A stretch of DNA of 64,000 nucleotides from Candidatus Giovannonibacteria bacterium RIFCSPHIGHO2_12_FULL_44_22 (GTDB lineage Bacteria > Patescibacteriota > Minisyncoccia > UBA11713 > 2-01-FULL-45-33): NCBI GenBank assembly GCA_001778695.1, contig MFHU01000003.1, forward strand, positions 1,521-65,520, in the 5' to 3' direction. Within the stretch, counting starts at the first letter, position 1. Every line of letters starts with the position of its first letter. Below, in pieces: positions 5,325 to 55,278 of the stretch. Both the position numbers and the translations under genes were made by a program. The notes below the pieces were generated by a model. The model was not told the DNA's origin and did not search any database. It saw nothing but the letters and a program-made list of their open reading frames with translations.

Positions 5325-5372
5325 AAGCAGTACCACTCCAGCGTAAAAATATATTAGCAGAATTGACCAATC

Positions 5373-6569
5373 TTGGCAAAAAGGATAAGATATTTTCAGA
5401 GGAGACAAAATATGTTTAAAGAAAAAACTGGGTTGTCTGCAATATCGCTTTTTTTGTGTGAAATTAAACAAATTCCTTTGTTGGGCAAAGAGGGAGAGAT
5501 CGCGGCATTCGTAGAGTTGGAAAAAGCAAAAAACGTTTTGTTTAAAAAAGCTCTTTTTCTAAAGCCCGTTCGCGAACAGATGCTCTTTGATTTAAAAAAT
5601 TTTGTTTTGGGTAAGAGCCATAATTCTCGTCCAAAAACGGATGAGGATAAAGATAATATTCGCACCGATCTTAATGCGGCTAAATCGCTCTTTAAGAAAA
5701 TTAGCGGAACTCGCAAATCTTTATGGTGGAATATTATTCAGAATTCCGGAGTTTATTTTTCTCTCTGTAAACTTGAGCGGTGGATTAGCGGTTTGAAAGA
5801 TCAAAATCTTTTTTCGGACGAGCTTGCTATGGTAACCGAAATCAGAAACCGTATAATGAAAGCTAATTTAAGGTTAGTGGTTGATATTGCCAAATCTTAT
5901 CCAGCAAATTCATCTATAGATTTTTTGGATAAAATTAACGAGGGGAACATCGGGCTCATGAAAGCCGTCAGCATGTTCAATCTCTCTCTTGGCTATAAGT
6001 TTAGCACTTACGCTGTGTGGTGGATAAAGCAGTCAATTATTCGAGCTCTAGTTGAAAAAGGCCATGTAATCAGGATTCCAGTGAATAAGGCGCAAGAGAA
6101 AAGTAAAATTTCCCGAGTTTTTCTTGCTTTGGCTCAAAGTTACGGTCGCGAGCCCACCATGGTGGAACTGGCCAAAAAACTTAAGCGGTCTCAAAAACAG
6201 ATTGCGGAAGTTCTGGCAATAGTAAAAGATCCATTTAGCTTAAATGATCCTATTGAGGATGGCGAAGGCGCGGCCGAATTCATTAATATTATAAAAGACA
6301 AAATAACACCTCCACTAGAAGACTCTACGGAAGAAAAAGAGAGAATGGAACTTGTAAACTTGGCGCTGCGCGAGCTTCCGCCACGAGAAGAAATTATTTT
6401 ACGGATGCGTTTCGGAGTCGGATGCAATTATGATCATACCTTGGAAGAAGTGGGAAAAAGTTTTCATATGTCACGTGAACGGGTCAGGCAAATAGAAAAA
6501 ACAGCAAAGAGAAAACTGAGATACCGATTACTTCGCAGAGGAATCCGTCCCAAAGCATTATTTATGTGA
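5373..6569 (+). CDS. rpoD: sigma-70 family RNA polymerase sigma factor (primary-like)
   Basis: Region 2 (LRLVVDIAKSY...NEGNIGLMKAVSMFNLSLGYKFSTYAVWWIKQSI) and region 4 (TLEEVGKSFHMSRERVRQIE) present. Atypical N-terminal 100 aa. Confidence 0.85.
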   Translation: MAKRIRYFQRRQNMFKEKTGLSAISLFLCEIKQIPLLGKEGEIAAFVELEKAKNVLFKKALFLKPVREQMLFDLKNFVLGKSHNSRPKTDEDKDNIRTDLNAAKSLFKKISGTRKSLWWNIIQNSGVYFSLCKLERWISGLKDQNLFSDELAMVTEIRNRIMKANLRLVVDIAKSYPANSSIDFLDKINEGNIGLMKAVSMFNLSLGYKFSTYAVWWIKQSIIRALVEKGHVIRIPVNKAQEKSKISRVFLALAQSYGREPTMVELAKKLKRSQKQIAEVLAIVKDPFSLNDPIEDGEGAAEFINIIKDKITPPLEDSTEEKERMELVNLALRELPPREEIILRMRFGVGCNYDHTLEEVGKSFHMSRERVRQIEKTAKRKLRYRLLRRGIRPKALFM

Positions 6570-17319: not shown

Positions 17320-18543
17320 ATGCCTCTCTATCATTATAAAGCGCGGGATAAGGAAGGGCGGGATGTTGAAGGTGAAAGGGAAGGAAAAGACAAATATGAT
17401 TTGGCTCATGCTTTGCGCGCGGAGGGAATGACGCCGCTTTTTGTTTTGGAAGCAGGAGTGTCTGGCAGGAAAAAAACTTTAAACAATTATATTCCGGATT
17501 TTCTTAAAAGGATTTCTTTGGAGGAAAAGCTGAATTTCACCAGAAACATCGCCGTGATGATTGGCGCAGGCGTGAGCTTGGCCAAGGCTTTGGAAGTCAT
17601 GGCGCGGCAGACCGCGAACGAAAAATTTAAAATAGTCATACTCACCATGGCAGAGGCCATCAAAAAAGGCAAAAATTTTTCGGACGCTCTGGGGGAGCAC
17701 CCAGAAGTTTTTCCGAAATTTTATCAGGAGATGGCCAGAGCCGGCGAAAAATCTGGAAAACTGGAGGAATCTTTAAAGCTGGTAGCTTTGCAGTTAAAAA
17801 AAGATTACACGCTTCGGAGAAAAATTAGAAGCGCGATGGTATATCCAGCCATTATAATGATTGCCATGGTCGGCATCGGAATTTTAATGATGATTTATGT
17901 GGTGCCGACATTAGTTTCAACTTTTAAAGAGCTTAATGTGACATTGCCGCTCTCAACTAGATTTATTATTTTTATAAGCGAATCTATTTTGCAAAGCGGC
18001 CTGATTTTTTTATTGGCCACGGCTATCTTGGGATATTTTATTTACCGCTGGGGAAAATCACAAATTGGCAAAGAACAGATTGATTGGATTCTTACCCGCC
18101 TGCCGGTGATCAAGGGCATCAACCAAAAATTCAACGCGGCCAGGACTTGCCGCACCTTGAGCTCTCTGATTTCTTCCGGCGTGAATATTTTGGAAGCTAT
18201 ATCAATCACTAAAGAAGTTTTGCAAAATCATTTTTATCAAAATATTTTGGAAGACGCCCGCCTGAAAATCCAGCGCGGCGAAACCATCTCGCGGGCATTT
18301 TTGAGTTCAGAGAGTCTTTACCCTCCACTGGTGGGAGAAATGACGGCCATTGGAGAGGAAACCGGAGAACTTTCCCAGATGCTTTTGCGGCTCGCGTCAT
18401 TTTATGAAAGCGAGGTCAGCCAGGCCACTAAAGACCTCTCCACAATTATTGAGCCCTTGCTGATGATTGTCATTGGCATTATCGTTGGATTTTTCGCCGT
18501 GTCCATGATTTCTCCGATGTATAATTTAGTGGGAGCGTTTTAA
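17320..18543 (+). CDS. pilC: type IV pilus platform protein PilC/GspF
   Basis: 407 aa with duplicated T2SF domains and three TM segments. Confidence 0.88.
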   Translation: MPLYHYKARDKEGRDVEGEREGKDKYDLAHALRAEGMTPLFVLEAGVSGRKKTLNNYIPDFLKRISLEEKLNFTRNIAVMIGAGVSLAKALEVMARQTANEKFKIVILTMAEAIKKGKNFSDALGEHPEVFPKFYQEMARAGEKSGKLEESLKLVALQLKKDYTLRRKIRSAMVYPAIIMIAMVGIGILMMIYVVPTLVSTFKELNVTLPLSTRFIIFISESILQSGLIFLLATAILGYFIYRWGKSQIGKEQIDWILTRLPVIKGINQKFNAARTCRTLSSLISSGVNILEAISITKEVLQNHFYQNILEDARLKIQRGETISRAFLSSESLYPPLVGEMTAIGEETGELSQMLLRLASFYESEVSQATKDLSTIIEPLLMIVIGIIVGFFAVSMISPMYNLVGAF

Positions 18544-21737: not shown

Positions 21738-22786
21738 TGATGCCAAGTTTTTTACGGCTTCCCATTTACGCTTTTGAGCTTTCCGACAAGTCTTACAAAT
21801 ACCTGCGCTTGAAAGAAGAGCGCGGCGGGATTGTGTTGGACGATTTTGGCGAGGGCGAGATCGCCGCCGGAGTTATAGAGCACGGAGAAATCAAAAAAAA
21901 GGACATACTCAAAGCGCTTTTAAAAGAACTTTTTTCCAAAAAAAATATACATTTTACGGCAATTTCTTTGCCGGAAGAAAAAGGATTTTTGGAAAACATC
22001 CAGCTTACGGGAATTAAAGAGAGTGAACTGCGCCAAGCCTTGGAACTGCAATTGGAAGAGCACGTGCCCTTGCCGCCTTCCGAGGTGATTTTTGATTATA
22101 TTTTGGCGCGTAACGAAAAAAATCATTTAGACGTGGCGCTCAACGCTTTTCCGCGCGCTTTGGTTGAAGATTATCTTGAAGTTTTTTCCTCGGCTGGCGT
22201 TTCGCCGACTTTTATGGAATCAGAGCTCACCGCCGCGACAAGATCAATAGTGCCACAGGACTTCGCTTCGCCCGCCATGGTGCTGGATTGGGGCAAAACC
22301 AGAATTAGTTTTTTTATCGTGGAGAACCGCGTTTTAAGATTCGCCTCCACAGTGCCTATAGGCGGCGAGATGCTGGATCAAGCCATAGCCAAAAATTTAA
22401 ACGTGAGCCTTGAAGAAGCCCAAAAATTAAAAGCCAAAAAAGGATTTTTGCAGGACAAGGATTCTTTACCGGTGTTTCAGGCGATTGTGCCAGTTGTTAC
22501 AGCCATACGCGAAGAAGCGGAAAAATATATTAATTTTTGGCAAACCCATTCGGAAAATAAGGAAGCGCCAAAAAAACTTTTTCTTTCGGGTGGGGACGCT
22601 AATCTGCCTGGCTTGCCGCAATATCTGGAGCAAGAGCTGGGTTTGCCGGTGGTTATGGCCAATCCTTGGGTCAACGTGAAATTTCCAAAATACTATCTGC
22701 CCAATTTGGAATTTAAAGACGCCGTCCGTTTCTCGATTTCCATCGGCATGGCTTTGGCCGCGATGGATAAAGAAAAAACCATATGA
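21734..22786 (+). CDS. pilM: type IV pilus assembly protein PilM (actin-like ATPase fold)
   Basis: 350 aa with PilM/FtsA-like architecture. Overlaps the upstream gene by 4 nt. Confidence 0.8.
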   Translation: MMMPSFLRLPIYAFELSDKSYKYLRLKEERGGIVLDDFGEGEIAAGVIEHGEIKKKDILKALLKELFSKKNIHFTAISLPEEKGFLENIQLTGIKESELRQALELQLEEHVPLPPSEVIFDYILARNEKNHLDVALNAFPRALVEDYLEVFSSAGVSPTFMESELTAATRSIVPQDFASPAMVLDWGKTRISFFIVENRVLRFASTVPIGGEMLDQAIAKNLNVSLEEAQKLKAKKGFLQDKDSLPVFQAIVPVVTAIREEAEKYINFWQTHSENKEAPKKLFLSGGDANLPGLPQYLEQELGLPVVMANPWVNVKFPKYYLPNLEFKDAVRFSISIGMALAAMDKEKTI

Positions 22787-23349
22787 ACTTACTTACTCCA
22801 AATTATGAAAAAGAATTCCGCCACGAGAAAATTATCCGTGTTTGGATAAGCTTCCTTATAATTTTGATAATCGTCGCCGCTACCGGACTGGTTTTTATGC
22901 TGCCGTCTTATTTCGCGCTCGCGCTTTCCAAGGACGATATTTTGCGCAGGCTTCAGGCCGAAGAAAAAGTATTTGAAAAAAAAGAATTTAAAAGCCTGGA
23001 AGAAAAAATAACGTCTTTAAACGAGAAAATTTTCACTTTTGAAAAGAGCGAAAAAAGGCGGCATGATTTCGCGCCACTTTTAAATAAAATCGCGATCAAT
23101 ACCGTTTCCGGCATCAGCTTAACTTTGATTACTTTAAGTAAAAATGAGCAGGGGCTCTTCACTTTTTCCGTGACGGGAGAAACGGACGCCAGAGACAATC
23201 TTTTAAAATACATCGATCGTTTGAGAGCGGTTAAGGAATTTTCTTCGATAAATTCTCCAGTTGCTAATTTGCTTAAGGAAAATAAAGCTTCTTTTTCCTT
23301 GGAAATTAAAATTAATCCCGAGGCCTACAAATATGAATCTGTTAAATAA
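22783..23349 (+). CDS. pilN: PilN-like bitopic membrane protein
   Basis: 188 aa with a single TM helix after a short cytoplasmic N-terminus, then coiled coil. Position is after pilM. Confidence 0.55.
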   Translation: MNLLTPNYEKEFRHEKIIRVWISFLIILIIVAATGLVFMLPSYFALALSKDDILRRLQAEEKVFEKKEFKSLEEKITSLNEKIFTFEKSEKRRHDFAPLLNKIAINTVSGISLTLITLSKNEQGLFTFSVTGETDARDNLLKYIDRLRAVKEFSSINSPVANLLKENKASFSLEIKINPEAYKYESVK

Positions 23350-23869
23350 CAAAAAACCCTTTTGGGCGCTGGCGGCGGGATTTACGATACTGGCCATATT
23401 GGGCGCTTTGATTTGGTTTACTTACGGAAAAATACAGCAGGCCAGCGCCGTTTCCGCGGAAGCCGAAGGCAAAATCGCCCTCTTGGAAAAAAAGGAGCGT
23501 GAATTTTCTTTAGCCGAATCAAACCTCAAAGATTTCGGCCCGGAAATTGATCTTTTGGACGGTGCTTTTCTTTCTGAGGGCACTTTCGTTGATTTTTTAC
23601 GCCTTTTGGAAAGCCTGGCCAAAAAAACGGGAGTTAAATTTTCCGCCCAGAACGCCAAGCTGCCTCAATCGGATAAAGAAATAGCCAGCTTGAATTTTGA
23701 AATAACTGGAAATTTCCGCGGAGTTGCCGATTTTTTCGCGCTGCTTGATAAAATTCCCTACGCTGGCATTGTTGATAGCGCCATTATTTCTCCCAAAGCC
23801 GATGGGCAAAAAAGAACCGGCGTGATTACCGCTAGGATAAATTATATTATATTTAATTTCAAAATATGA
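23333..23869 (+). CDS. PilO-like bitopic membrane protein
   Basis: Start set at the internal Met (MNLLNNKKPFWALAAGFTILAILGALIWF). One TM helix plus coiled coil. Position is after pilN. Confidence 0.45.
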   Translation: MNLLNNKKPFWALAAGFTILAILGALIWFTYGKIQQASAVSAEAEGKIALLEKKEREFSLAESNLKDFGPEIDLLDGAFLSEGTFVDFLRLLESLAKKTGVKFSAQNAKLPQSDKEIASLNFEITGNFRGVADFFALLDKIPYAGIVDSAIISPKADGQKRTGVITARINYIIFNFKI

Positions 23870-24162
23870 AGTTAAAAAATTTATTTTCAAAAATAGGGCG
23901 CAGGCCGCAGGGTCCCGTAACCATAGAATCAATCTGGACAGCGGGTTTGGTAATCGCCCTAGTTTTACTTTTAGCGGCGCTTTGGGCGGATTATTTTCTT
24001 ATCTATAAAAAATTCGTGGTGGAGAAATTATTACCGGCGCAATTTGAGGCTTCCGGGTCTTTTCTTAAAAAAACCAATCTGGAAAATGCCGGGAAAAAAC
24101 TCCGCGAGAGAAAAACATTTTTGGATAATCCAACTTCTCAATTTGTGGAAAGCCCTTTTTGA
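23866..24162 (+). CDS. small membrane protein, last gene of the pilus operon
   Basis: 98 aa with one TM helix. Overlaps the upstream gene. Confidence 0.35.
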   Translation: MKLKNLFSKIGRRPQGPVTIESIWTAGLVIALVLLLAALWADYFLIYKKFVVEKLLPAQFEASGSFLKKTNLENAGKKLRERKTFLDNPTSQFVESPF

Positions 24163-24191
24163 TGTTAGAATTTTTCCGAGTACGAGCTTTT

Positions 24192-24263
24192 CTCCTCGTA
24201 GTTCAATGGATAGAACGGCGCTCTTCTAAGGCGTATATGGGGGTTCGATTCCCTCCGAGGGGA
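24192..24263 (+). tRNA. tRNA-Arg (anticodon TCT)
   Basis: Cloverleaf with anticodon loop CTTCTAA and T-arm GGGGGTTCGATTCCCTC. Acceptor has one G-U pair. Confidence 0.65.
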
Positions 24264-24368
24264 TAAAAAATATTTAAATTTAAAAAATCGTATTAAAAAC
24301 TTGCTGTTTTAGGCACAAACATTTGTCGAGTTTGAATGAGAATGTAAGTTATATTATGATTACGATAC

Positions 24369-24617
24369 ATGAGCTATGAACTTACAAAACACGCGAGAGA
24401 ACGAATGGAGGAACGGACTATATCTAAAGAGCTCATTGAGGAGGCCTTGCGTAACCCTACAAAAGTTTGGTATGATGAAGATGGCAGGATTCTTATCAAA
24501 AAGTTATATAAGAAAAAAGACAAGGAAAGGCTTTTGCTCATCATCGGCGAGAAAGCTAACGGAAAATTAAAAATTATTACTATTATTGAGACATCAAAGA
24601 TTAAAAAATATTTATGA
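24369..24617 (+). CDS. DUF4258-family toxin-like protein
   Basis: LTKHARERMEERTISKELIEEAL N-terminus is typical of DUF4258. Translationally coupled to the downstream DUF2283 gene. Confidence 0.55.
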   Translation: MSYELTKHARERMEERTISKELIEEALRNPTKVWYDEDGRILIKKLYKKKDKERLLLIIGEKANGKLKIITIIETSKIKKYL

Positions 24618-24853
24618 AAAAGAATAAACCCAAAATTTCATATGACAAAGAGAGCAAGGTGCTAATGGTAGAACTGAAACCAGCAAAAAGCGTGGATTCA
24701 GATATTCATGGCAACATTGTTATTGATTATGACAAAAAAGGAGAAGCCATCAGAGTTAATTTCTATCAGTTTAACTTTGAGGAATTTGCGAAAGGGCTTA
24801 GATCCTTAAAAGAATTTGCACGAGATTCCCGCGCCGCCCTCATTACCAGATAA
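24614..24853 (+). CDS. DUF2283-family protein (putative antitoxin partner)
   Basis: ISYDKESKVLMVEL...GNIVIDYDKKGEAIRVNF matches the DUF2283 pattern. Confidence 0.6.
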   Translation: MKKNKPKISYDKESKVLMVELKPAKSVDSDIHGNIVIDYDKKGEAIRVNFYQFNFEEFAKGLRSLKEFARDSRAALITR

Positions 24854-24975
24854 AGAACCCGGAGAAAAACATCGGCGCGAACCATATTTTGATTTTGGGG
24901 GACGGGAAATTTTTTAATCCTAGAATCTATAAAATTTAGGCCTTGAAACAGCAGAGATGCTGATTTTTTGTGGGC

Positions 24976-25004
24976 TTGACTTCCAGTCCATAATATGCTA
25001 TTCT
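24976..25004 (+). promoter_or_regulatory. sigma-70-like promoter for the high-GC cassette gene
   Basis: TTGACT, 17-bp spacer, TATTCT, about 95 nt upstream of the ATG. The leader contains the hairpin CCACGAGGGCATCGTGG and a strong GAAGGAGG Shine-Dalgarno. Confidence 0.4.
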
Positions 25005-25097
25005 CAACGGCATCGGAATCATGGTAGAAACCTTGTAAATCCGGTAACCCCGCCACGAGGGCATCGTGGTAACTCAGTACCTTGAAGGAGGAGTCAA

Positions 25098-25463
25098 ATG
25101 ACTCAAAACAATCAGGTCGTTGCCAGTGTTCTGGAAGTTCTCGAAGGAGTGGGGCTCAATCACTCCTGTACGATGGGCAAGGCGGTCATCCTGGAGGGAG
25201 GTCTCAGTGATCACATGAAAGCCCTTCGCGTCTCCACCTTTCGTGACGCCATCACGGGCGGCACCGGATTCATCAACCGCCCTGTCGTCCAGCAGAACAT
25301 GCTTCCGGCTCGCCGAGCTTTGCTCGCCCATGTCGCGAGTGTCCTGCAGGAGAAGGGAGCCACTCTCAAGAGTAAGGAGGACTTTCACGGCCCTACGGTG
25401 GACGAGGTTTACCACTTCGTCATCGAGGGTCAGGAAGTCGACCTCGTGCTCATGCCGGGCTGA
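25098..25463 (+). CDS. hypothetical protein encoded by a high-GC cassette
   Basis: 121-aa ORF. Local GC is far above the window average. Perfect Shine-Dalgarno GAAGGAGG 7 nt upstream. Followed by a strong intrinsic terminator. Confidence 0.6.
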   Translation: MTQNNQVVASVLEVLEGVGLNHSCTMGKAVILEGGLSDHMKALRVSTFRDAITGGTGFINRPVVQQNMLPARRALLAHVASVLQEKGATLKSKEDFHGPTVDEVYHFVIEGQEVDLVLMPG

Positions 25464-25480
25464 ACCAGGCATGCGACATT

Positions 25481-25527
25481 CCCCGAGCCCTTGCGAAACA
25501 CGTTTTCGCTCGGGGCTCTTCTTTTTT
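25481..25527 (+). terminator. rho-independent terminator
   Basis: CCCCGAGC...GCGAAA-CACG-TTTCGC...GCTCGGGG compound hairpin, followed by CTCTTCTTTTTTC. Confidence 0.6.
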
Positions 25528-25730
25528 CTAAAATCATTGTAATTTTCATAAAAATTGATTATTCTTTAGGTATTCGCTTTGCGAATTCTGAATTAGTTGC
25601 CGCCAAAGAAAAATTGGAAATTGTTATCGGTGCGGCTTCGCCGCAAATTCTAAATTTTTTCGTGGGGGGAATTCCTCGCCGCCTGCGGCGGCGAAAACCG
25701 TTCGAACTATCTCAAGAATACCGCGAAAAC

Positions 25731-26075
25731 ATGAAATTGACAGAAAAAATATCAAAAGTATTTATAGAAACACTGCCAATATTTTTTGGAATACTCTTGT
25801 CATATTTATTTTGGGAAAATAATATGTTGCTTTTTATAATTTATCTTGCGTTAACTTTGGGCTTGATTTATTTTCATAAGGACAAAATCGAATTTATTAT
25901 TTTCGCATATGGTATTTTGGTCGGCGCAATCGTTGAAATTATCGGCACTCAAGTTAGTGGCTATCAATCTTTTACGAAACCTGATTTTGGGGGTATTCCT
26001 ATATGGCTGCCTGTTGTTTGGGGATATGGCTTTGTTGCAATGAAACGAATCAGTTTCGTTCTTAAAAACTTATAA
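25731..26075 (+). CDS. hypothetical membrane protein
   Basis: Start set at the internal Met after the terminator. About 114 aa with three or four TM helices. Confidence 0.4.
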   Translation: MKLTEKISKVFIETLPIFFGILLSYLFWENNMLLFIIYLALTLGLIYFHKDKIEFIIFAYGILVGAIVEIIGTQVSGYQSFTKPDFGGIPIWLPVVWGYGFVAMKRISFVLKNL

Positions 26076-26236
26076 GTTTCTAATTTGCAATCTCCACACT
26101 ATAGCTGGCAAATTGCAAATTCTATTTATCGCTAAAAAATTTAATGTGATGAGTATACTCGTTTTTGCTCGATCGTAGCAAATTGAGTATATATGTTTTT
26201 GTCTTTAGTTTCTTTAGTTTTAAGTATTTTTACTAT

Positions 26237-26677
26237 TTACTCATTCTTCACTTTGAGTTTTGAGATGCGGGCTTTGTCCAGTTTGGGGAGTTTGATAGTT
26301 AAAAGGCCGTTTTTCATTGTCGCTTCCGCTTCGTCGGAATCAACTTCCTGCGGAAGCAAAATGGAACGTGAAAACGCGCCCCAATAAAGTTCTTGATAAA
26401 AATAGTCGTTGCCGGAAATTTCCTTTTGGCGCTCGCGCTTTCCGCGGAGCGTTACCATATCATGCGTTACCTCCACATCCAAATCATCTAATCTTACCCC
26501 ACCCACAATCGCTTGCACCATAATTTCTTCCGGCGTTTGCCAGACGTCAATCGTAAGCTGGCCTTCCTCGTCTTGAGGCAGGTCATGTTTCTGGGTTTTG
26601 TGGAGCATTCCGGATTCCTCAACCGGTTCCACTTTAACGCTCCCGGTAAGCCGTTCAAAAAATGATCTTTTTTCCAT
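26237..26677 (-). CDS. Hsp20/alpha-crystallin family small heat-shock protein
   Basis: 146 aa with alpha-crystallin domain (DVWQTPEEIMVQA..., GLLTIKLPK). Confidence 0.88.
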   Translation of the reverse strand: MEKRSFFERLTGSVKVEPVEESGMLHKTQKHDLPQDEEGQLTIDVWQTPEEIMVQAIVGGVRLDDLDVEVTHDMVTLRGKRERQKEISGNDYFYQELYWGAFSRSILLPQEVDSDEAEATMKNGLLTIKLPKLDKARISKLKVKNE

Positions 26678-26682
26678 ATAAG

Positions 26683-27399
26683 TTATATTTTAGCACGTTT
26701 AGCTCTTTCAAATAAAACCAGGGCAATGGCGGCGCCCAAAATTACGAATGATGTAATCCAAATCTGGTTCAGCACGCCACCTACGCTTTTTATTATAAAA
26801 AAATTATAAAAACCGTGCAACAAGGTGGCGAAAAATAACCCAATAAACAGCTCTCGGAGCCGTCGCTCCTTGTGAAAAAACGAAAAAGCGAACGCGGAGC
26901 CTATGATTGCCGTGGCCGAAACGTGAATCAATAGGGCATTGATAAACCGGAAAGCGCTGACCATGACGGATTGGGTTACGCCGACTTTCAGAGACTCGCC
27001 CAAAAATAAAATATTTTCCAGCGCCGCGAAACCCAAAGCGGCCGCGACCATGTAAATCATGGCGTCCACGGGCTCGTCAAAATATTTGCTGCGGATGGCC
27101 GTAAAAAAAGCCGCGGCGGTTTTGGTGATTTCCTCCAAAAAAGCGAACCCGAAAATATTTAATATTGAGAACCAAAAAGCTCCGTATCCGAAAAATTTTT
27201 GGAAAACATTATTTGCCGAAGAAAAACTATTTTCCAAAATTATCGCCACAACCACTCCTAGCATGCCGGCAAGAAACACTAGTAAAATTTCCCGGCGCGG
27301 CTCTGGATGGTCATCCTCTTTCAGCCAAAACCAAAGCCAAAAAAGTGAAGGCAGAAATGCCAGCGCTCCCGCCAAAAAAATATAAGCTAGGAAATCCAT
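26683..27399 (-). CDS. PrsW/CPBP-like intramembrane metalloprotease
   Basis: 238 aa polytopic protein. Motifs EEITK (EExxK), FAALENILF and HGFYN (HxxxN). Confidence 0.6.
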   Translation of the reverse strand: MDFLAYIFLAGALAFLPSLFWLWFWLKEDDHPEPRREILLVFLAGMLGVVVAIILENSFSSANNVFQKFFGYGAFWFSILNIFGFAFLEEITKTAAAFFTAIRSKYFDEPVDAMIYMVAAALGFAALENILFLGESLKVGVTQSVMVSAFRFINALLIHVSATAIIGSAFAFSFFHKERRLRELFIGLFFATLLHGFYNFFIIKSVGGVLNQIWITSFVILGAAIALVLFERAKRAKI

Positions 27400-29459
27400 G
27401 ATTCTGTCATCAGCATAGTCCTGTTAAATTTTTGCCAGACGGTTTCGGTGATGAATGGCATGAAGGGGTGCAAAAGTTTTAAAGATTCTTTTAAGGCGCG
27501 CGCCAAAACTTCCGGGTTTGGATTTTTTTTGGATTCCTCCAGATAAATATCGCAAAAATCGTGCCAGAAAAATTCGTAAAGAATATGGAGCGCTTTCCCG
27601 AAATCGTATTTTTCTATAAGTTTATTAACTTGTTTTTGCGTTTTTCGGAGCCTTACAATAATTTTTTTGTCAGCTACAGTTTTCCCGCCCAGGAAGAAGT
27701 CCGACTTCTTTTGGGATCCGAAGTCGGACTTCGAGGATGGTGGACATTGCCCTAAAACAAATCTCGCAGCGTTCCAAATTTTGTTGCAAAACTTTTTTCC
27801 GGCCATCACGTGTTCTTCAGACCATTTTATATCTTGCCCGCCCATGGCTTGCCAGATAAGCCCGAAACGCGTCGCGTCGGCGCCGTATTTATTTATCAGA
27901 TCCATCGGGTCAATTCCCGTGCCTAAAGATTTGGACATTCTCTCTCCGGATTTTGCTAAAATTGTGGCATGAATGATCACATCAGAAAAAGGCACATAGC
28001 CCAAAAATTCTTCGGATGAAAAAACCATCCGTGCCACCCAAAGATTGATGATATCGCGCGCGGTGGAAAGAACCTGCGTCGGATAATAATTTTTTAAATC
28101 TGCGGAATTTTCTGGCCATCCCAAAATCGCGAACGGCCAAAGGGCGGAAGAAAACCAGGTGTCCAAAACATCGTCAACTCCTTCAATCGGAATTTTGTGC
28201 CCCCACCAGATTTGGCGGGAAATGCACCAATCTCTGACATTTTTTAACCAATCAAAATAAATTTTTTCCCAGCGCTTGGGATGAAATTTTATTTTGCCCT
28301 TTTTGACATCTTGAATCGCTAGCTTGGCGAGCTCTTCCATTTTTAAAAACCATTGTTTACTTCTTAAGGGCTCAATGGCTGTGCCACATCGATAACATTT
28401 GGCTACATTATGCGAATAATCTTCTATTTTTTCTATCAGGCCGAGCTTTTCTAATTTTTTCACAACCTTTTCCCGGGCTTCCAAAATTTTAAGCCCATCA
28501 AATTCTGCGCCGGCTTCTTTTGTCATTCGCCCCTTTTCATTAATAACTTGGATGACAGGCAGTTTGTGGGTAATTGCGATTTGTTCGTCTAGCATATCGT
28601 GCGCGGGAGTAATTTTCACAGCGCCAGTCCCGAAATCTATCTCTATTCTCCTATCGGATACAATCGGGATCTCTTTATTTTGAATTGGTAGAATAACTTT
28701 TTTGCTAATTAAGCTTTTATATTTTTTATCTTTGGGGTTTACCGCCACGGCGGTATCTCCCAGCATAGTTTCAGGTCTTGTCGTAGCAATAATGATGAAT
28801 TTATTTTTTTCTTCCGCCAACAGATATTTAATAAACCAAAGTTTCCCTTTTTCTTCATAATATTCCAATTCCAAATCGGAAAGTGACGTTTGGCATCTTA
28901 CACACCAGTTGATAACGCGCTCGCCTTGGTAAATCCAACTCTTTTTTTGGTAATGCAAAAAAGCGGTTTTCACAGCTTCTTGGTACTCCGGGTCCATAGT
29001 AAAGCGGGTTCTAGACCAATCGCAGCTTGCCCCCAGTTTTTTTAATTGGTCTAAAATGATGTTTCCGTATTTCTCTTTCCACTCCCAAACTTTTTCCAAA
29101 AATTTTTTCCGTCCCAAGTCGTGCCGGCTCACGCCTTGTTTTTTTAAATCTTTTTCAACAACATTTTGCGTGGCGATTCCGGCGTGGTCCGTCCCCGGAA
29201 TCCAAAGGACGCGGTAGCCCTCCATCCTTTTTTTACGGATTAAAATATCTTGGATGGCAGCGTTCAGTGCGTGCCCCATGTGCAATGACCCCGTAATGTT
29301 CGGTGGCGGCAAAGCGATAGTGAAAGTTTTATTTTTATTTGGATTTTCAGCCTGAGGCTGATGCGCCTCGGACGCAAAAAAACCGCTCTTTTCCCAGAGC
29401 TTATATATTTTATCTTCATGTTCTTTCGGGTTATACGGCTTATCAAAATCGGAAAGCAT
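27387..29459 (-). CDS. valS: valine--tRNA ligase (short form, 690 aa)
   Basis: PPPNITGSLHMGHA (HIGH region), KMSKS (MSKSLGTG), editing and anticodon-binding regions. Lacks the long C-terminal coiled coil. Contains the in-frame repeat at 27696..27732. Confidence 0.9.
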   Translation of the reverse strand: MLSDFDKPYNPKEHEDKIYKLWEKSGFFASEAHQPQAENPNKNKTFTIALPPPNITGSLHMGHALNAAIQDILIRKKRMEGYRVLWIPGTDHAGIATQNVVEKDLKKQGVSRHDLGRKKFLEKVWEWKEKYGNIILDQLKKLGASCDWSRTRFTMDPEYQEAVKTAFLHYQKKSWIYQGERVINWCVRCQTSLSDLELEYYEEKGKLWFIKYLLAEEKNKFIIIATTRPETMLGDTAVAVNPKDKKYKSLISKKVILPIQNKEIPIVSDRRIEIDFGTGAVKITPAHDMLDEQIAITHKLPVIQVINEKGRMTKEAGAEFDGLKILEAREKVVKKLEKLGLIEKIEDYSHNVAKCYRCGTAIEPLRSKQWFLKMEELAKLAIQDVKKGKIKFHPKRWEKIYFDWLKNVRDWCISRQIWWGHKIPIEGVDDVLDTWFSSALWPFAILGWPENSADLKNYYPTQVLSTARDIINLWVARMVFSSEEFLGYVPFSDVIIHATILAKSGERMSKSLGTGIDPMDLINKYGADATRFGLIWQAMGGQDIKWSEEHVMAGKKFCNKIWNAARFVLGQCPPSSKSDFGSQKKSDFFLGGKTVADKKIIVRLRKTQKQVNKLIEKYDFGKALHILYEFFWHDFCDIYLEESKKNPNPEVLARALKESLKLLHPFMPFITETVWQKFNRTMLMTESWIS
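27696..27732. repeat. palindromic repeat GAAGTCCGACTTC-TTTTGGGATCC-GAAGTCGGACTTC inside valS
   Basis: Two 13-mers that are exact reverse complements of each other; each is itself a mini-palindrome. In-frame (peptide SSKSDFGSQKKSDFF). Confidence 0.75.
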
Positions 29460-37239: not shown

Positions 37240-37394
37240 AGTGATAGTAATTTAACAAACTAAGCCATTTTTCTCAATGTTGTCCCGAATTTTGAGCTAT
37301 TACTTCAATTTGCGCCCAAATAGTGATATTTTACATTTATACAATTAAATATGGTTATTGCCTAACCCTCGTGAATTAAAAACTCCGAGGTATG

Positions 37395-37537
37395 GCAGAA
37401 AAACTGTTCAGGTATATTAAGCTCTTCGTCCAGAGCACCTGAACAGTCATATTCCGAAAGGAGTATGGGTGGCGAAAGCCATCGCTGGCGGAGAGCTTTG
37501 TGTTTTCCGCCAACAAGGCATAAATAAAACTGTTCAG
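37395..37537. promoter_or_regulatory. three copies of a CTGTTCAGGT 10-mer (two direct, one inverted) upstream of mod
   Basis: AAAACTGTTCAGGTAT at about 37400 and again immediately before the mod ATG. ACCTGAACAGT (inverted) at about 37440. Candidate operator or phase-control sites. Confidence 0.35.
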
Positions 37538-45877: not shown

Positions 45878-47311
45878 TCACCGTCCTCCTTTGTTGGTAT
45901 TGATTCCAATGAAATGCGGTTGATCGGCCGCTTCCACTTTCCTTTGGTTACTATCATTTCCATCGGCAATTCTTTTGCCGGTGTATGCCTCTACTCTTTT
46001 TCGGACATCTTCTTTTCTATCTATAAATTCTTGGCGGGGTTTTTTCCCACACCACCTAGGAAGAATGCCCCTTTGCATTTCCAACCACTCATTCGCTAAA
46101 GATTGAGGAACTTTAAGCTGGGTCATCTTCGCGGAGCTCCTGCCATTTTCTGCGACTATGACAGGAAAAGATATTGACACCAGAGCATCCTCCGTGTCTT
46201 CAGGAAACGGTACTTTGATCACCGGTTTGAGCCGGACGATTTCCGGCGGCTTTTCTTTTTTAGCCACGCCAACAACTCCAGTTTTTTCAATTGGCTGATC
46301 AGATGGCGGTTCCTTTGCTACAACGATCATGGCAACCCATTTCTTGCGGTCCTCAACTTGTTCGCGAGTGCTTACGTGAAATTCTACATTCGGCCTTCTG
46401 TCAGGATTTATAGCCTCTTTCACTTGGCCCGTAACTTTTTCAACTTCTCCCACAGACCAATTTCCATGAAATAAAATTAGTCCGCTTTCGGCCTTTTTCA
46501 CTATCTCTGTATCCTGATATCTGTTCTGAACGAGCTCTTTTCCTATTATTTTAGGATCGCACGGGGCGTCTTTATCTTCAAAGAAAAAGCTCCCGTACTG
46601 GACGTAATGTCCAAGAGCCAGGCGCGTCGTATAATCTTTAAGATCGGAATTTATGCCGTCTCCGACCTCCAGAATTAATTCGCGGAGAAAAACCATTACC
46701 AGCTGTTCTAAACAGCTTTTATTGATTATATTCCACGCTTCGCTTACCAATACATCCCTGTTCTCGATGTTATTATTGTATATCACAATCGTCGGAACAG
46801 CGTCTCGTATCGTATTTAAAGCGTCGTTGGCCCTGTTCATCCTGCCTTCAAATGGAAAGGGCATTGTGACTATTGTCAGCATGGGGATCTCTTTATCTTT
46901 CGCCATTTGCGCCACCGCTGGAACACCGCCAGTGCCCGTTCCGCCTCCGAGTCCCGCAACAATCAAGAGCGTTTGCAGTTTGTCTAAAAAATGCGATATC
47001 TCTTCTCTATCTTCTTCGATGGCTTTGGCTCCTATTTGCGGATCGCCACCAGCGCCCAGGCCTTTCGTTAGTTCATAGCCCAATTGGCACATGTACAACC
47101 TCTCGCTATTTTCCCATCCCTCGCAGCCTTTATTCTCTTGAAACAGTTTTAAATGTCCGGCATCTGTGTTCGCGGCCAAAATGTGCACGTGAGGATGATT
47201 TTCCGGCGGGAATGAATTAATTATTAGGCCGGCGTTGTTCACGCCGCACCCGCCAATAAACGCTATTCCTAAATTAACCGGACCTGTTTTTAGTTCTTTG
47301 TTTGGCTCCAT
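45878..47311 (-). CDS. ftsZ: FtsZ/tubulin-family GTPase with long charged C-terminal extension
   Basis: IGGCGVNNAG, NTDAGHL, AGLGGGTGTGGVPAVAQMAKD (tubulin signature GGGTGTG), T7-loop region. About 160 extra C-terminal residues rich in K/E/P. Confidence 0.8.
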   Translation of the reverse strand: MEPNKELKTGPVNLGIAFIGGCGVNNAGLIINSFPPENHPHVHILAANTDAGHLKLFQENKGCEGWENSERLYMCQLGYELTKGLGAGGDPQIGAKAIEEDREEISHFLDKLQTLLIVAGLGGGTGTGGVPAVAQMAKDKEIPMLTIVTMPFPFEGRMNRANDALNTIRDAVPTIVIYNNNIENRDVLVSEAWNIINKSCLEQLVMVFLRELILEVGDGINSDLKDYTTRLALGHYVQYGSFFFEDKDAPCDPKIIGKELVQNRYQDTEIVKKAESGLILFHGNWSVGEVEKVTGQVKEAINPDRRPNVEFHVSTREQVEDRKKWVAMIVVAKEPPSDQPIEKTGVVGVAKKEKPPEIVRLKPVIKVPFPEDTEDALVSISFPVIVAENGRSSAKMTQLKVPQSLANEWLEMQRGILPRWCGKKPRQEFIDRKEDVRKRVEAYTGKRIADGNDSNQRKVEAADQPHFIGINTNKGGR

Positions 47312-47706
47312 GTCATACTACCTCCATTTTTTTGGATTTTTGTTATTTTTAACCCTACTAAGAATTTTGGGCCGTTATTGGTCGTATCTCTAATGAAGAT
47401 CGTTGCCGCATTTTTGACCTCTTCTTTTTTGATTTCTTCGGAGAGCAAAGATATTTCAAGAACGATTCGTGAAAAGCGTCTTAAAATCAGACCTTCTCTT
47501 CTCCAAATTTTTTCAACGCGGGAATGGATTTTCATCCCGTCTCTAAGTCGAGGTGAAACAGAGTTTATGAAAAGATTGTGAAGAGTTTTCGCTAAACTCT
47601 TTCCATCTTCTTCAAGCTTATCGGTACGTTCTTTTTTCCCGATATATTTGATGTATGCAATAAACCCCGCAATCAGAACCGCAAAAAACACAAAGAATTT
47701 ATTCAT
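47290..47706 (-). CDS. small membrane-anchored hypothetical protein
   Basis: 138 aa with N-terminal TM helix. Lies upstream of, and overlapping, the ftsZ-like gene. Confidence 0.4.
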   Translation of the reverse strand: MNKFFVFFAVLIAGFIAYIKYIGKKERTDKLEEDGKSLAKTLHNLFINSVSPRLRDGMKIHSRVEKIWRREGLILRRFSRIVLEISLLSEEIKKEEVKNAATIFIRDTTNNGPKFLVGLKITKIQKNGGSMTWSQTKN

Positions 47707-53680: not shown

Positions 53681-53752
53681 TGCCCCCATAGTTCAAGGGA
53701 TAGAACGAGGGACTCCTAAGCCCTAGATCTCCGTTCAACTCGGGGTGGGGGC
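53681..53752 (+). tRNA. tRNA-Arg (anticodon CCT)
   Basis: GCCCCCATAGTTCAAGGGATAGAACGAGGGACTCCTAAGCCCTAGATCTCCGTTCAACTCGGGGTGGGGGCA. Anticodon loop CTCCTAA. One mismatch at the base of the anticodon stem. Confidence 0.6.
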
Positions 53753-53796
53753 ACAATTTGACAGCATAGTTTGATAAAGATATGCTTTAAAATATT

Positions 53797-54156: not shown

Positions 54157-54558
54157 ATGAAAAATGGTATCAAACTTCTCTTGGAGCCTGGGACTGGGGT
54201 GCGAGACTGGGTCAGGTATCAAACACTAAATGTCGAGATTGGCCGAGAACGGCTCAATGGAAGAAGTGTCAGTTTTGTTAAGATTCGCAATGGGGAAGCA
54301 CAGTTCTTTCCCAGTGGTGGTGTCGAGGTGAAGATGCCCGGCGCTGATGAGTTCCGGGTCGCGTTTCAACCACGGAAGGTTCTGGAGATTCGCGACCTAA
54401 AAGGGAGCCTCATCGAGCGTAACCACTATCTCTGCACCGAGTGCGCTACTCTCACCGGCAAAATGGAAAACTACGAGCCGAGTACCGTCGTCGCTGGTCG
54501 TGTGAATGCAAACTTCAAGTGCACCAAGTGCGGACATCAATGGGAGAAGAGGGTATGA
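54157..54558 (+). CDS. hypothetical protein with C-terminal zinc ribbon, encoded by a high-GC cassette
   Basis: 133 aa. CTEC...CTKCGH zinc ribbon. Elevated GC. Strong AAAGGAGGTG Shine-Dalgarno. Candidate promoter TTGGCA-N17-TTAGTA upstream. Confidence 0.55.
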   Translation: MKNGIKLLLEPGTGVRDWVRYQTLNVEIGRERLNGRSVSFVKIRNGEAQFFPSGGVEVKMPGADEFRVAFQPRKVLEIRDLKGSLIERNHYLCTECATLTGKMENYEPSTVVAGRVNANFKCTKCGHQWEKRV

Positions 54559-54732
54559 CATCTTCCTTCTGTGCTCCCGATCCAAGGGGCCGTGCGCGAA
54601 TTCTTGCGCCGGCTCTTTTTCTTTTCAAAGAATTTGCCGCCAAACCCACCAAAAGTTTCGTATTTAGGCGGGCAGAGAAAAACTTGAAATTGGCAACTGG
54701 AAATTTTGGCCGATAGATGCTAGTATAAAAAC

Positions 54733-54978
54733 ATGAATAATTGGTTTTATGGTTCATATGGCCATTGGGCCAGCCCCTTTTGGGGAGGATTTGGCGTGGG
54801 ATTTTTGGCGCCGATTTTATTGGTTTTGATTCTGTGGAGTTTCTATTGGAAAACCAGAGCCTTGTGGCGCGCCGCCAAAAACGGGGACAAAGCTTGGTTT
54901 GTCGTTTTGATTTTGGTCCAATCCCTCGGTCTTCTGGACATTCTCTACCTCTACGTTTTCGGCAAAAAATCGGAGTAA
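54733..54978 (+). CDS. small two-TM membrane protein
   Basis: 81 aa with two hydrophobic helices (FGVGFLAPILLVLILWSF, WFVVLILVQSLGLLDILYLYVF). Confidence 0.4.
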   Translation: MNNWFYGSYGHWASPFWGGFGVGFLAPILLVLILWSFYWKTRALWRAAKNGDKAWFVVLILVQSLGLLDILYLYVFGKKSE

Positions 54979-55278
54979 GGGGCCTACCCCCACACCAACT
55001 TATGTTTTATGTGTATGTTCTGAAAAGCAAGAAAGATGGCGAGTTTTACATTGGCTCTACCAACGATTTACGTAGAAGGTTTAAAGAACATAATGATGGA
55101 AAGGTTTTTTCAACAAAATCTCACATACCATTTGAAATTATTTATTACGAGGCGTATAAAAAAGAGGAAGATGCTAGACGCAGAGAATCAAATCTGAAGT
55201 TGCGATCGCGAGCCTTTGCACAACTTAAGAAACGAATAGGCGCATCTTCCAAAACATAAGTTGGTGTGGGGGCCTATA
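54979..55278. mobile_element. GIY-YIG mini-element: nuclease gene flanked by about 20-bp inverted repeats, abutting the tRNA-Ala 5' end
   Basis: Left GGGGCCTA-CCCCCACACCAACTTATG; right CATAAGTTGGTGTGGGGG-CCTA. The right repeat merges into the tRNA-Ala acceptor (GGGCCTA). The left end carries a copy of GGGGCCTA, a possible target duplication. Confidence 0.45.
55002..55259 (+). CDS. GIY-YIG nuclease-family protein
   Basis: FYVYVLKSKKDGEFYIGSTNDLRRRFKEHNDG... is the classic GIY-YIG (UPF0213-like) motif. 85 aa. Confidence 0.8.
   Translation: MFYVYVLKSKKDGEFYIGSTNDLRRRFKEHNDGKVFSTKSHIPFEIIYYEAYKKEEDARRRESNLKLRSRAFAQLKKRIGASSKT

What the first reader, a model, noticed from the sequence alone, without database searches (positions are those of the whole stretch)
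24976..25527. High-GC single-gene cassette with its own promoter, strong Shine-Dalgarno and terminator
The 121-aa ORF 25098..25463 has strikingly higher GC than its surroundings and a perfect GAAGGAGG ribosome-binding site, while native genes here have weak ones. It has a candidate TTGACT-N17-TATTCT promoter with a structured leader, and a long compound terminator hairpin. All of this points to recent horizontal acquisition of a self-contained expression unit, possibly from a high-GC host-associated bacterium.
Basis: seen in the sequence. Interest (0 to 1): 0.55.

Follow-up and report, generated by a model that had tools for sequence, protein, structure and literature searches.

The report
Horizontally acquired small gene in hotspot
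A real, GC-rich 121-residue protein gene of unknown function was recently picked up from another ultra-small (Patescibacteria) bacterium and sits in a swap-prone spot between a tRNA gene and a heat-shock gene, which is an ordinary kind of event involving an uncharacterised protein family.

Summary
ORF 25098..25463 is the GC peak of the whole 64-kb window: GC 0.58 against 0.43, and GC3 0.70 against 0.44 ± 0.05. Its Shine-Dalgarno site is the second strongest of 69 ORFs. A promoter-like site and a hairpin plus T-run terminator flank it.

It is a genuine protein gene. dN/dS is about 0.25, substitutions pile up at third codon positions, and the AlphaFold model has pLDDT 92.8.

Horizontal acquisition is well supported:
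- The closest sister genome is collinear on both sides but lacks window 24305..26235.
- Copies in distant Patescibacteria are about 80% identical in DNA (pS 0.39–0.49), while RNase Y and ClpP against the same Kaiserbacteria genome are saturated (pS 0.82–0.83).
- Three independent assemblies are identical across the junctions, so it is not a chimera.

- All named relatives are Patescibacteria, so there is no sign of a high-GC host donor.
- Only the SD and the CDS are homologous between copies. The promoter, leader and terminator are not shared.
- The leader is not significantly structured.

The function is unknown. The family matches no Pfam, NCBIfam, PADLOC, PHROG or PDB entry. Some relatives are fused to sigma-70 region 4, which hints weakly at a transcription-associated binding domain.

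The parts
24191..24264 (+). tRNA-Arg (TCT), the left anchor of the variable hotspot
   Evidence: ARAGORN and Rfam tRNA, 61.9 bits. It is conserved next to hsp20 in relatives L014, L015 and L017.
24305..26235 (.). 1931-bp variable islet that the sister genome lacks
   Evidence: The window and L014 are collinear at 83.6% nt identity up to 24304 and again from 26236. In between, L014 has an unrelated 361-bp segment.
24369..24853 (+). DUF4258 / DUF2283 gene pair (toxin-antitoxin-like), a separate low-GC module of the islet
   Evidence: Pfam PF14076 at 3.4e-10 and PF10049 at 2.2e-9. GC is 0.345 and 0.371. A terminator-like hairpin with a T-run lies at 24949-24972.
24976..25004 (+). Promoter-like site TTGACT-N17-TATTCT with TG extension
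   Evidence: Consensus scan, 9 of 12 matches. It is not homologous to the upstream regions of other copies. This is an inference, not a demonstration.
25005..25083 (+). 5' leader with two local hairpins, neither conserved nor significantly structured
   Evidence: Fold z = -1.25. The only Rfam match is an 11-bit chance-level hit. No homology in L001 or L007.
25084..25091 (+). Shine-Dalgarno GAAGGAGG, 6 nt before the ATG, conserved with the CDS in other copies
   Evidence: Energy -12.1 kcal/mol, second of 69 ORFs. GGAGGAGTCRAATG is shared with L100. The homology with L001 starts at 25085.
25098..25463 (+). 121-aa protein gene of a new Patescibacteria-restricted family: an acidic alpha/beta domain
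   Evidence: dN/dS 0.25. Third-position excess of substitutions. AF2 pLDDT 92.8. There are 25 clusters at 50% identity among 1.84 G representatives. No Pfam, NCBIfam, PADLOC, PHROG or PDB match.
25482..25529 (+). Intrinsic-terminator-like compound hairpin plus T-rich tail
   Evidence: Sequence. Centroid fold -20.3 kcal/mol. Other copies have their own, non-homologous terminators.
25598..25728 (+). Conserved ~130-nt intergenic element of unknown role, next to the cassette
   Evidence: A covariance-model search finds it in the window (152 bits), L016, L104 and L059 (41 bits), plus three weak hits. It is not in Rfam.
25731..26075 (+). 114-aa hydrophobic ORF, a third module of the islet with low GC
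   Evidence: ORF list. GC 0.313. No family match.
26237..26677 (-). hsp20, the right anchor of the hotspot (native gene)
   Evidence: Pfam HSP20 in the precomputed calls. It is 92.5% aa identical to the L014 copy.

Best explanation
ORF 25098..25463 is a genuine monocistronic protein gene that this Giovannonibacteria lineage gained by horizontal transfer from another, GC-richer member of the Patescibacteria. The transfer dates to about the time this species split from its sister species. The gene landed in a recombination-prone intergenic hotspot between tRNA-Arg(TCT) and hsp20. In this genome that hotspot holds a 1.9-kb mosaic of three compositionally different modules: a DUF4258/DUF2283 pair, this gene, and a small membrane ORF. 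What is shown: the gene is coding, it is foreign, and the site is variable. What is inferred: it is transcribed from its own sigma-70-type promoter, translated efficiently from a near-perfect SD that travels with the CDS, and terminated at its own hairpin. The product is a 121-aa acidic alpha/beta domain. My best guess, at low confidence (about 0.2-0.25), is that it is a non-enzymatic binding or regulatory module acting with the transcription machinery. That guess rests on three points. In about a quarter of family clusters the same domain follows an N-terminal sigma-70 region-4 helix-turn-helix. The closest relatives sit divergently next to TrmB-type regulators. And the acidic residues an enzyme would need are not conserved, whereas an Arg-Arg pair on the long helix is.
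For: Coding: dN/dS is 0.25 against L007 and L001. Differences at codon positions 1/2/3 are 17/11/37, 19/16/36 and 20/7/42. The antisense ORF 25074-25472 is broken in homologues. AF2 gives pLDDT 92.8 and pTM 0.86.
Foreign origin: GC3 is 0.697 against 0.444±0.050, with GC2 unchanged. It is the GC maximum of the window. The sister genome L014 (flanks 83.6% identical) lacks 24305-26235. L017 has the tRNA directly beside hsp20, and L015 has other genes there. pS between the window and the Kaiserbacteria copy is 0.40, against 0.83 for RNase Y and 0.82 for ClpP between the same two genomes. pS to L007, L001 and L094 (0.39-0.49) equals that of native genes between the window and its sister species (hsp20 0.53, PrsW 0.43). 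The close subfamily keeps GC 0.52-0.59 in hosts of 0.44-0.54. The adjacent TrmB genes of three loci are only 27-40% identical and host-like in GC, while the neighbouring ORF copies are 75-80% identical to the window's ORF.
Not an artefact: ENA, JGI and NCBI assemblies are 100% identical over 22100-28400.
Expression signals.
Function hints: Sigma70_r4 in P0013 at 5.5e-17 and RpoD C-terminus matches at 2e-22. The fused model has two independent domains, with pTM 0.65 and a low-confidence linker. In the 25-sequence alignment only G19 is invariant; R72, R73, L75, G87 and L118 are at least 90% conserved, and E33, D38 and D102 vary. HGT among Patescibacteria is reported to be common (PMC12455944).
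Confidence: 0.8

Rival explanations
1. The gene is native and vertically inherited. Its high GC3, strong SD and low synonymous divergence reflect codon selection in a very highly expressed gene.
For: It has a strong SD, its own promoter and its own terminator. Three close homologues share a TrmB neighbour. A second small GC-rich, strong-SD gene exists at 54157-54558.
Against: It is absent from the syntenic site of the sister species. No native ORF of at least 200 codons exceeds GC3 0.514, and that set includes FtsZ, ClpP, RNase Y and RpoD. The family is very sparse, with 25 clusters among 1.84 G representatives. GC1 is raised as well. pN is higher than in native genes.
Confidence: 0.08
2. The GC-rich segment is an assembly or binning chimera from another organism.
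For: The compositional change is abrupt.
Against: The ENA (MEGAHIT), JGI and NCBI assemblies are 100% identical over 6.3 kb spanning both junctions. The exact protein occurs on more than 50 contigs of up to 206 kb.
Confidence: 0.01
3. The region is really a structured non-coding RNA or a riboswitch-controlled unit, and the ORF is incidental to high GC.
For: High GC in an AT-rich genome is a classic ncRNA signal. ORFs are open on both strands. The leader has hairpins.
Against: Substitutions follow a codon-periodic pattern with dN/dS 0.25. The antisense frame is broken in homologues. The protein model is confident. There is no Rfam match, and the leader is neither conserved nor significantly stable.
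Confidence: 0.03
4. The gene came from a high-GC non-Patescibacteria host or partner organism.
For: The gene's GC (0.58) exceeds that of every Patescibacteria host seen here (up to 0.54).
Against: No homologue outside Patescibacteria-type contigs turned up in any search. None turned up in phages, plasmids or viral contigs. L100 (host about 0.54, gene 0.58) shows that a near-matching Patescibacteria background exists.
Confidence: 0.05
5. The product is a minimal nucleotidyltransferase (Pol-beta/MNT/RelA-SpoT-like) enzyme, for example the antitoxin-like partner of a neighbouring gene.
For: The top weak fold matches are all NTase-fold proteins: SpoT, FAM46, OAS1, cGLR, Pol mu, TUTase, and phage 'nucleotidyltransferases' with TM 0.5-0.55. 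A beta-strand followed by GG and a helix resembles the hG[GS] motif.
Against: No Foldseek hit reaches E < 1e-3. There is no NTP_transf or RelA_SpoT Pfam match in any of 25 members. The candidate carboxylates E33, D38 and D102 are not conserved. The sequence link through P0033 collapsed, with hhalign probability 4.8%. The strand order differs from the canonical core.
Confidence: 0.08

Closest known systems
tRNA-linked genomic islets and integration hotspots carrying horizontally acquired orphan genes
   Same: It lies next to a tRNA gene and is compositionally deviant. It is absent from the sister genome at a precisely bounded site. A toxin-antitoxin-like pair accompanies it. Different relatives carry different cargo at the same site.
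   Different: It has no integrase, no tRNA-3' direct repeat and no phage genes. The islet is only 1.9 kb and is a mosaic of three separately composed modules.
Integron gene cassettes
   Same: Single small ORFs appear to be exchangeable at one locus. ORF121 sits there in this window, an ORF133-family gene sits there in L104 and L105, and a 38-codon ORF sits there in L014. A conserved element follows the cassette in two genomes.
   Different: Each unit carries its own promoter-like site and terminator. No attC-like imperfect palindrome and no IntI gene were seen. The conserved element is missing from most other loci of both families.
Pol-beta-type minimal nucleotidyltransferase fold (MNT, RelA/SpoT synthetase)
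   Same: It is a small alpha/beta domain, and its best (weak) structural neighbours belong to this fold.
   Different: The catalytic carboxylates are not conserved, the topology is not canonical, and no profile match exists.
One-component regulators with a sigma-70 region-4 / LuxR-type HTH plus an effector domain
   Same: Relatives P0013, P0006, P0007 and P0010-12 have an N-terminal region-4 HTH followed by this domain through a flexible linker.
   Different: The window's protein is the stand-alone domain without any HTH. In the fused relatives the HTH is N-terminal, and in P0013 it is closest to the RpoD C-terminus rather than to LuxR/GerE.

Membership tests
Horizontally acquired islet at a tRNA-linked hotspot | Composition deviates from the host genome | tested here: met
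   GC 0.579 against 0.428. GC3 is about 5 sd above the mean of long ORFs. It is the GC maximum of the window.
Horizontally acquired islet at a tRNA-linked hotspot | Absent from the syntenic site in a close relative, with sharp boundaries | tested here: met
   L014 is collinear up to 24304 and from 26236, with an unrelated 361 bp in between.
Horizontally acquired islet at a tRNA-linked hotspot | Gene history conflicts with genome history | tested here: met
   pS is 0.40 for the ORF, against 0.82-0.83 for RNase Y and ClpP, between the window and the Kaiserbacteria genome. It is similar to native-gene pS against the sister species.
Horizontally acquired islet at a tRNA-linked hotspot | Mobility machinery or att-type direct repeats | tested here: not met
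   There is no second copy of the tRNA 3' end. Only short AT-rich chance repeats were found. The islet has no integrase ORF.
Integron gene cassette | Promoterless ORF followed by an attC recombination site, next to intI | tested here: not met
   It has its own promoter-like site and terminator. No attC-like palindrome or integrase was found.
Riboswitch or structured cis-regulatory leader | Conserved, stable structure upstream of the homologous genes | tested here: not met
   z = -1.25. No Rfam family matched. The upstream regions of L001 and L007 are not homologous.
Pol-beta-like nucleotidyltransferase fold | hG[GS] motif plus conserved [DE]x[DE] and a third carboxylate | tested here: not met
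   GG follows beta1, but E33, D38 and D102 vary across the family. No Pfam match in 25 members.
Pol-beta-like nucleotidyltransferase fold | Significant structural similarity to solved members | tested here: inconclusive
Sigma-70 family / region-4 HTH proteins | Presence of a region-4 helix-turn-helix | tested here: not met
   The window protein has no Pfam hit. Region 4 is present only in longer relatives such as P0013.
DUF4258/DUF2283 toxin-antitoxin module | Co-transcribed, co-conserved partner of the pair | tested here: not met
   A terminator-like site and a new promoter-like site separate them. No homologous locus pairs the ORF with these genes. Their GC differs by more than 20 points.
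Known anti-phage defence or phage protein families | Match to PADLOC or PHROG profiles, or presence on phage or plasmid records | tested here: not met

The most novel reading that the evidence does not exclude
ORF121 and the unrelated ORF133 family (54157-54558) belong to a shared pool of self-expressed, GC-rich mini-cassettes (promoter, strong SD, small ORF, terminator). These cassettes would be exchanged between Patescibacteria at a few preferred sites: downstream of tRNAs, beside hsp20, and beside DUF3800 genes. The conserved ~130-nt element (CCGCCAAAGAAAAACTTGAAATTG...GTTCGAACTAYTYAAGAATAC) that follows the cassette in this window and in L104 would then serve as a recombination or targeting site. 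That would be an integron-like but integrase-less cassette system in ultra-small bacteria. Its cargo, including this sigma-region-4-linked domain, might modulate host transcription.
Probability: 0.1. Interest if true: 0.7.

Novelty: new member of a known kind. Interest (0 to 1): 0.3.

Why it matters
This is a clean, datable example of gene gain in a streamlined Patescibacteria genome. It comes with an empty-site control, and it defines a variable hotspot between tRNA-Arg and hsp20. It also flags a small, confidently folded protein family confined to Patescibacteria. The family has no annotation, is sometimes fused to sigma-70 region 4, and would be a reasonable candidate for a Pfam entry and for a pull-down experiment. 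It does not reveal a new kind of genetic system.

Tried and rejected
- Rfam, on the whole window at gathering thresholds and on the region at E ≤ 10, found nothing for the leader or terminator. An 11-bit RT-7 hit and a 12.6-bit DUF3800-XI hit are chance-level.
- Pfam, PHROG, PADLOC and NCBIfam on the protein and on 25 family members gave no family.
- PDB sequence searches with the profile and with three members gave nothing meaningful.
- Foldseek against PDB and BFVD gave only weak NTase-like and partial glyoxalase-module matches.
- A possible RelA/SpoT link through P0033 was rejected by hhalign, with probability 4.8%.
- AF2 on a sigma-4 fusion, to look for an intramolecular interface, returned independent domains (pTM 0.65), so it gives no support for direct sigma-4 binding.
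- Phage, plasmid and IMG/VR searches for a vector found none.
- The JGI metagenome scan added only 4 loci.
- att-type repeats of the tRNA 3' end and flanking direct or inverted repeats were not credible.
- The idea that TrmB travels with the gene was rejected: the TrmB copies are only 27-40% identical and host-like in GC.
- The antisense 132-aa ORF was rejected as coding.
- ORF121 and ORF133 are unrelated in sequence.

Full report
**What is there.**
The window is from a Candidatus Giovannonibacteria genome. The ORF product is 100% identical to a protein of RIFCSPLOWO2_01_FULL_4x and of several GW2011 MAGs.

ORF 25098..25463 (+, 121 aa) is real and compositionally extreme:
- Its GC is 0.579 against 0.428 for the window.
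- The highest-GC 366-nt stretch of all 64 kb starts at 25151.
- GC1/GC2/GC3 are 0.672/0.369/0.697. The 37 ORFs of at least 200 codons average 0.491/0.366/0.444, and their highest GC3 is 0.514.

Expression signals:
- GAAGGAGG (25084-25091) pairs with the anti-SD at -12.1 kcal/mol, the second strongest of 69 ORFs. Most native genes have weak sites.
- TTGACT-N17-TATTCT with a TG extension lies at 24976-25004, directly after a terminator-like hairpin that closes the upstream gene pair.
- A compound hairpin (25482-25515) with a T-rich tail follows the stop codon.
- The leader is not significantly structured (z = -1.25) and matches no Rfam family.

**It is a protein gene.**
- Against its closest homologues, differences fall mainly on third codon positions (17/11/37, 19/16/36 and 20/7/42).
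- dN/dS is about 0.25.
- The fully open antisense ORF (25074-25472) is interrupted in homologues.
- AlphaFold2 with a 25-sequence alignment gives pLDDT 92.8 and pTM 0.86. The model has an N-terminal helix, a strand followed by GG, two short helices, a long helix carrying the conserved ARRALLAH motif, and a three-stranded meander.

**It was acquired horizontally.**
- Empty site. The closest relative found is L014 (GW2011_GWC1_45_13), whose PrsW is 90% identical. It is collinear with the window at 83.6% nt identity up to 24304 and again from 26236. Window 24305-26235 (1931 bp) is replaced there by an unrelated 361 bp. L017 has the tRNA directly beside hsp20, and L015 carries other genes. The interval between tRNA-Arg(TCT) and hsp20 is therefore a variable hotspot.
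- Mosaic islet. The DUF4258/DUF2283 pair has GC 0.35-0.37, this gene 0.58, and a 114-aa hydrophobic ORF 0.31.
- Distant copies are too similar. Copies in distant lineages are 78-82% identical in DNA, with pS 0.39-0.49. RNase Y and ClpP between the window and the same Kaiserbacteria contig have pS 0.83 and 0.82, which is saturated, and 59% nt identity. The ORF's pS to these distant copies equals that of native genes between the window and its sister species (hsp20 0.53, PrsW 0.43). This fits a gain at about the time of that split.
- The gene keeps its own composition. The close subfamily has GC 0.52-0.59 and GC3 0.64-0.71 in hosts of 0.44-0.54 GC.
- No chimera. Three independent assemblies (ENA, JGI, NCBI) are identical over 22100-28400.
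- HGT among Patescibacteria is reported to be frequent (PMC12455944).

- All named family members are Patescibacteria. The family is tiny, with 25 clusters at 50% identity among 1.84 billion representatives. Nothing was found in phages, plasmids or IMG/VR. A high-GC host donor therefore has no support.
- L100, with host GC about 0.54 and gene GC 0.58, shows that a near-matching Patescibacteria background exists.
- Homology between copies covers only the SD and the CDS (25085/25093 to 25476/25467). The SD-to-ATG string GGAGGAGTCRAATG is shared with L100. Every copy has its own non-homologous promoter-like site and terminator.
- No integrase or att repeat was found, so the insertion mechanism is unknown.

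**Function.**
- No Pfam, NCBIfam, PADLOC, PHROG or PDB-sequence match exists for any member.
- Foldseek gives only weak hits. Against PDB the best E-value is 0.04: SpoT, FAM46, OAS1, cGLR, Pol mu and TUTase, plus glyoxalase-type modules over the C-terminal half. Against BFVD the best is E = 0.007 with TM up to 0.55, to phage 'nucleotidyltransferases'.
- The carboxylates that an NTase would need are not conserved. R72, R73, L75, G87 and L118 are. I do not file it as an NTase.
- Six family clusters carry an N-terminal extension. In P0013 this is a clear sigma-70 region 4 (Pfam 5.5e-17; RpoD C-terminus 2e-22). The AF2 model of the fusion shows two independent domains (pTM 0.65).
- The three closest homologues lie divergently beside TrmB-type regulators. 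Those are only 27-40% identical to each other and have host-like GC.
- L100's copy lies just upstream of a CIRCE-controlled hrcA-grpE-hsp20-dnaK operon.
- My best guess, at about 0.2-0.25, is a non-enzymatic binding or regulatory domain connected with transcription.

**Side findings.**
- A second GC-rich, strongest-SD small gene (54157-54558, 133 aa, C-terminal CxxC...CxxC) lies after another tRNA. Its family is also confined to Patescibacteria-type contigs and has no Pfam match. It is GC-rich relative to its hosts.
- In L104 and L105 that family occupies the same hsp20-PrsW-ValRS hotspot that holds ORF121 here.
- A ~130-nt element with conserved ends follows the cassette in the window (25598-25728) and in L104. 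It also occurs in L016 and L059.
- These points allow, but do not establish, a cassette-exchange reading. The element is missing from most other loci of both families.

**Verdict.**
The donor guess and the structured leader are not supported. This is an ordinary kind of event, an orphan gene gained in a hotspot, involving an uncharacterised protein family. Interest is modest.

Noticed in passing
window 54157-54558 (with the tRNA at 53682-53753 and a terminator near 54575-54620): This is a second GC-rich single-gene unit: a 133-aa ORF with GC 0.517 and GC3 0.575, the strongest SD in the window (AAAGGAGGTG, -13.1 kcal/mol), a C-terminal CxxC...CxxC zinc-ribbon-like end, and its own terminator. 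Its family has about 28 clusters on Patescibacteria-type contigs and no Pfam match. It is GC-rich relative to its hosts (L106: 0.514 against 0.379). It is unrelated in sequence to ORF121.
   Followed up: partly
L104 4001-4402 and L105 106-507: A homologue of the window's ORF133 occupies the same hsp20-PrsW-ValRS hotspot that holds ORF121 in this window. Different small GC-rich genes therefore alternate at this site in different genomes.
   Followed up: partly
window 25598-25728 (+); also L104 4491-4611, L016 278-405 (-), L059 10520-10602 (-); weak hits at window 17610-17739, L001 269-380 and L095 4095-4207; degenerate copy at window 54636-54692: This is a conserved ~130-nt intergenic element. 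Its 5' block is CCGCCAAAGAAAAACTTGAAATTGTYA, its middle holds variable GC-rich hairpins, and its 3' block is GTTCGRACTAWYTYAAGAATACYGC. It lies just after the cassette terminators and is not in Rfam. Only 3-4 full copies were available, so structure and strand are unresolved.
   Followed up: partly
L014 9168-9528 (reverse strand), the sister genome's content at the hotspot: In place of the 1.9-kb islet the sister genome has a 361-bp unit. It consists of a perfect TTGACA-N17-TATAAT, a leader hairpin, AAAGGAGGG, a GC-rich ORF of about 38 codons, and a terminator. It matched no Rfam family apart from the flanking tRNA.
   Followed up: partly
L007 2640-2900 and L106/L107: Homologues of both ORF121 (L007) and ORF133 (L106, L107) lie next to DUF3800 genes. 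L007 also has two similar GC-rich hairpin-containing repeats (…CGGCGACAAATCCC…) downstream of the ORF. The window's 25665-25700 (-) gives a chance-level 12.6-bit DUF3800-XI RNA hit.
   Followed up: no
L094 1413-2440: The ORF121 homologue (79% identical) is preceded in frame by a stretch of about 90 codons with its own SD and ATG, and by an internal AGGAGG-GTG start at the domain boundary. A diverged tandem paralogue (P0020) follows it.
   Followed up: partly
L100 4001-4520: The ORF121 homologue (63% identical) lies immediately upstream of hrcA-grpE-hsp20-dnaK, which has a textbook CIRCE operator (TTAGCACTC-N9-GAGTGCTAA). With the window's hsp20 neighbour, two independent contexts lie close to heat-shock genes.
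   Followed up: no
window 37359-37483 (+): LOOT RNA (Rfam RF03000), 91.2 bits against a gathering score of 46.4.
   Followed up: no
window 54741-55256 (+) and L001 5589-5870: A GIY-YIG domain ORF (Pfam 1.1e-16) lies about 200 bp downstream of the ORF133 unit. A GIY-YIG gene also lies 1.7 kb from the ORF121 homologue in L001.
   Followed up: no
window 5367-6566 (+) and 45881-47317 (-): These are an RpoD-like primary sigma factor (regions 2, 3 and 4) and FtsZ. Both have ordinary GC3, which makes them useful native comparators.
   Followed up: no
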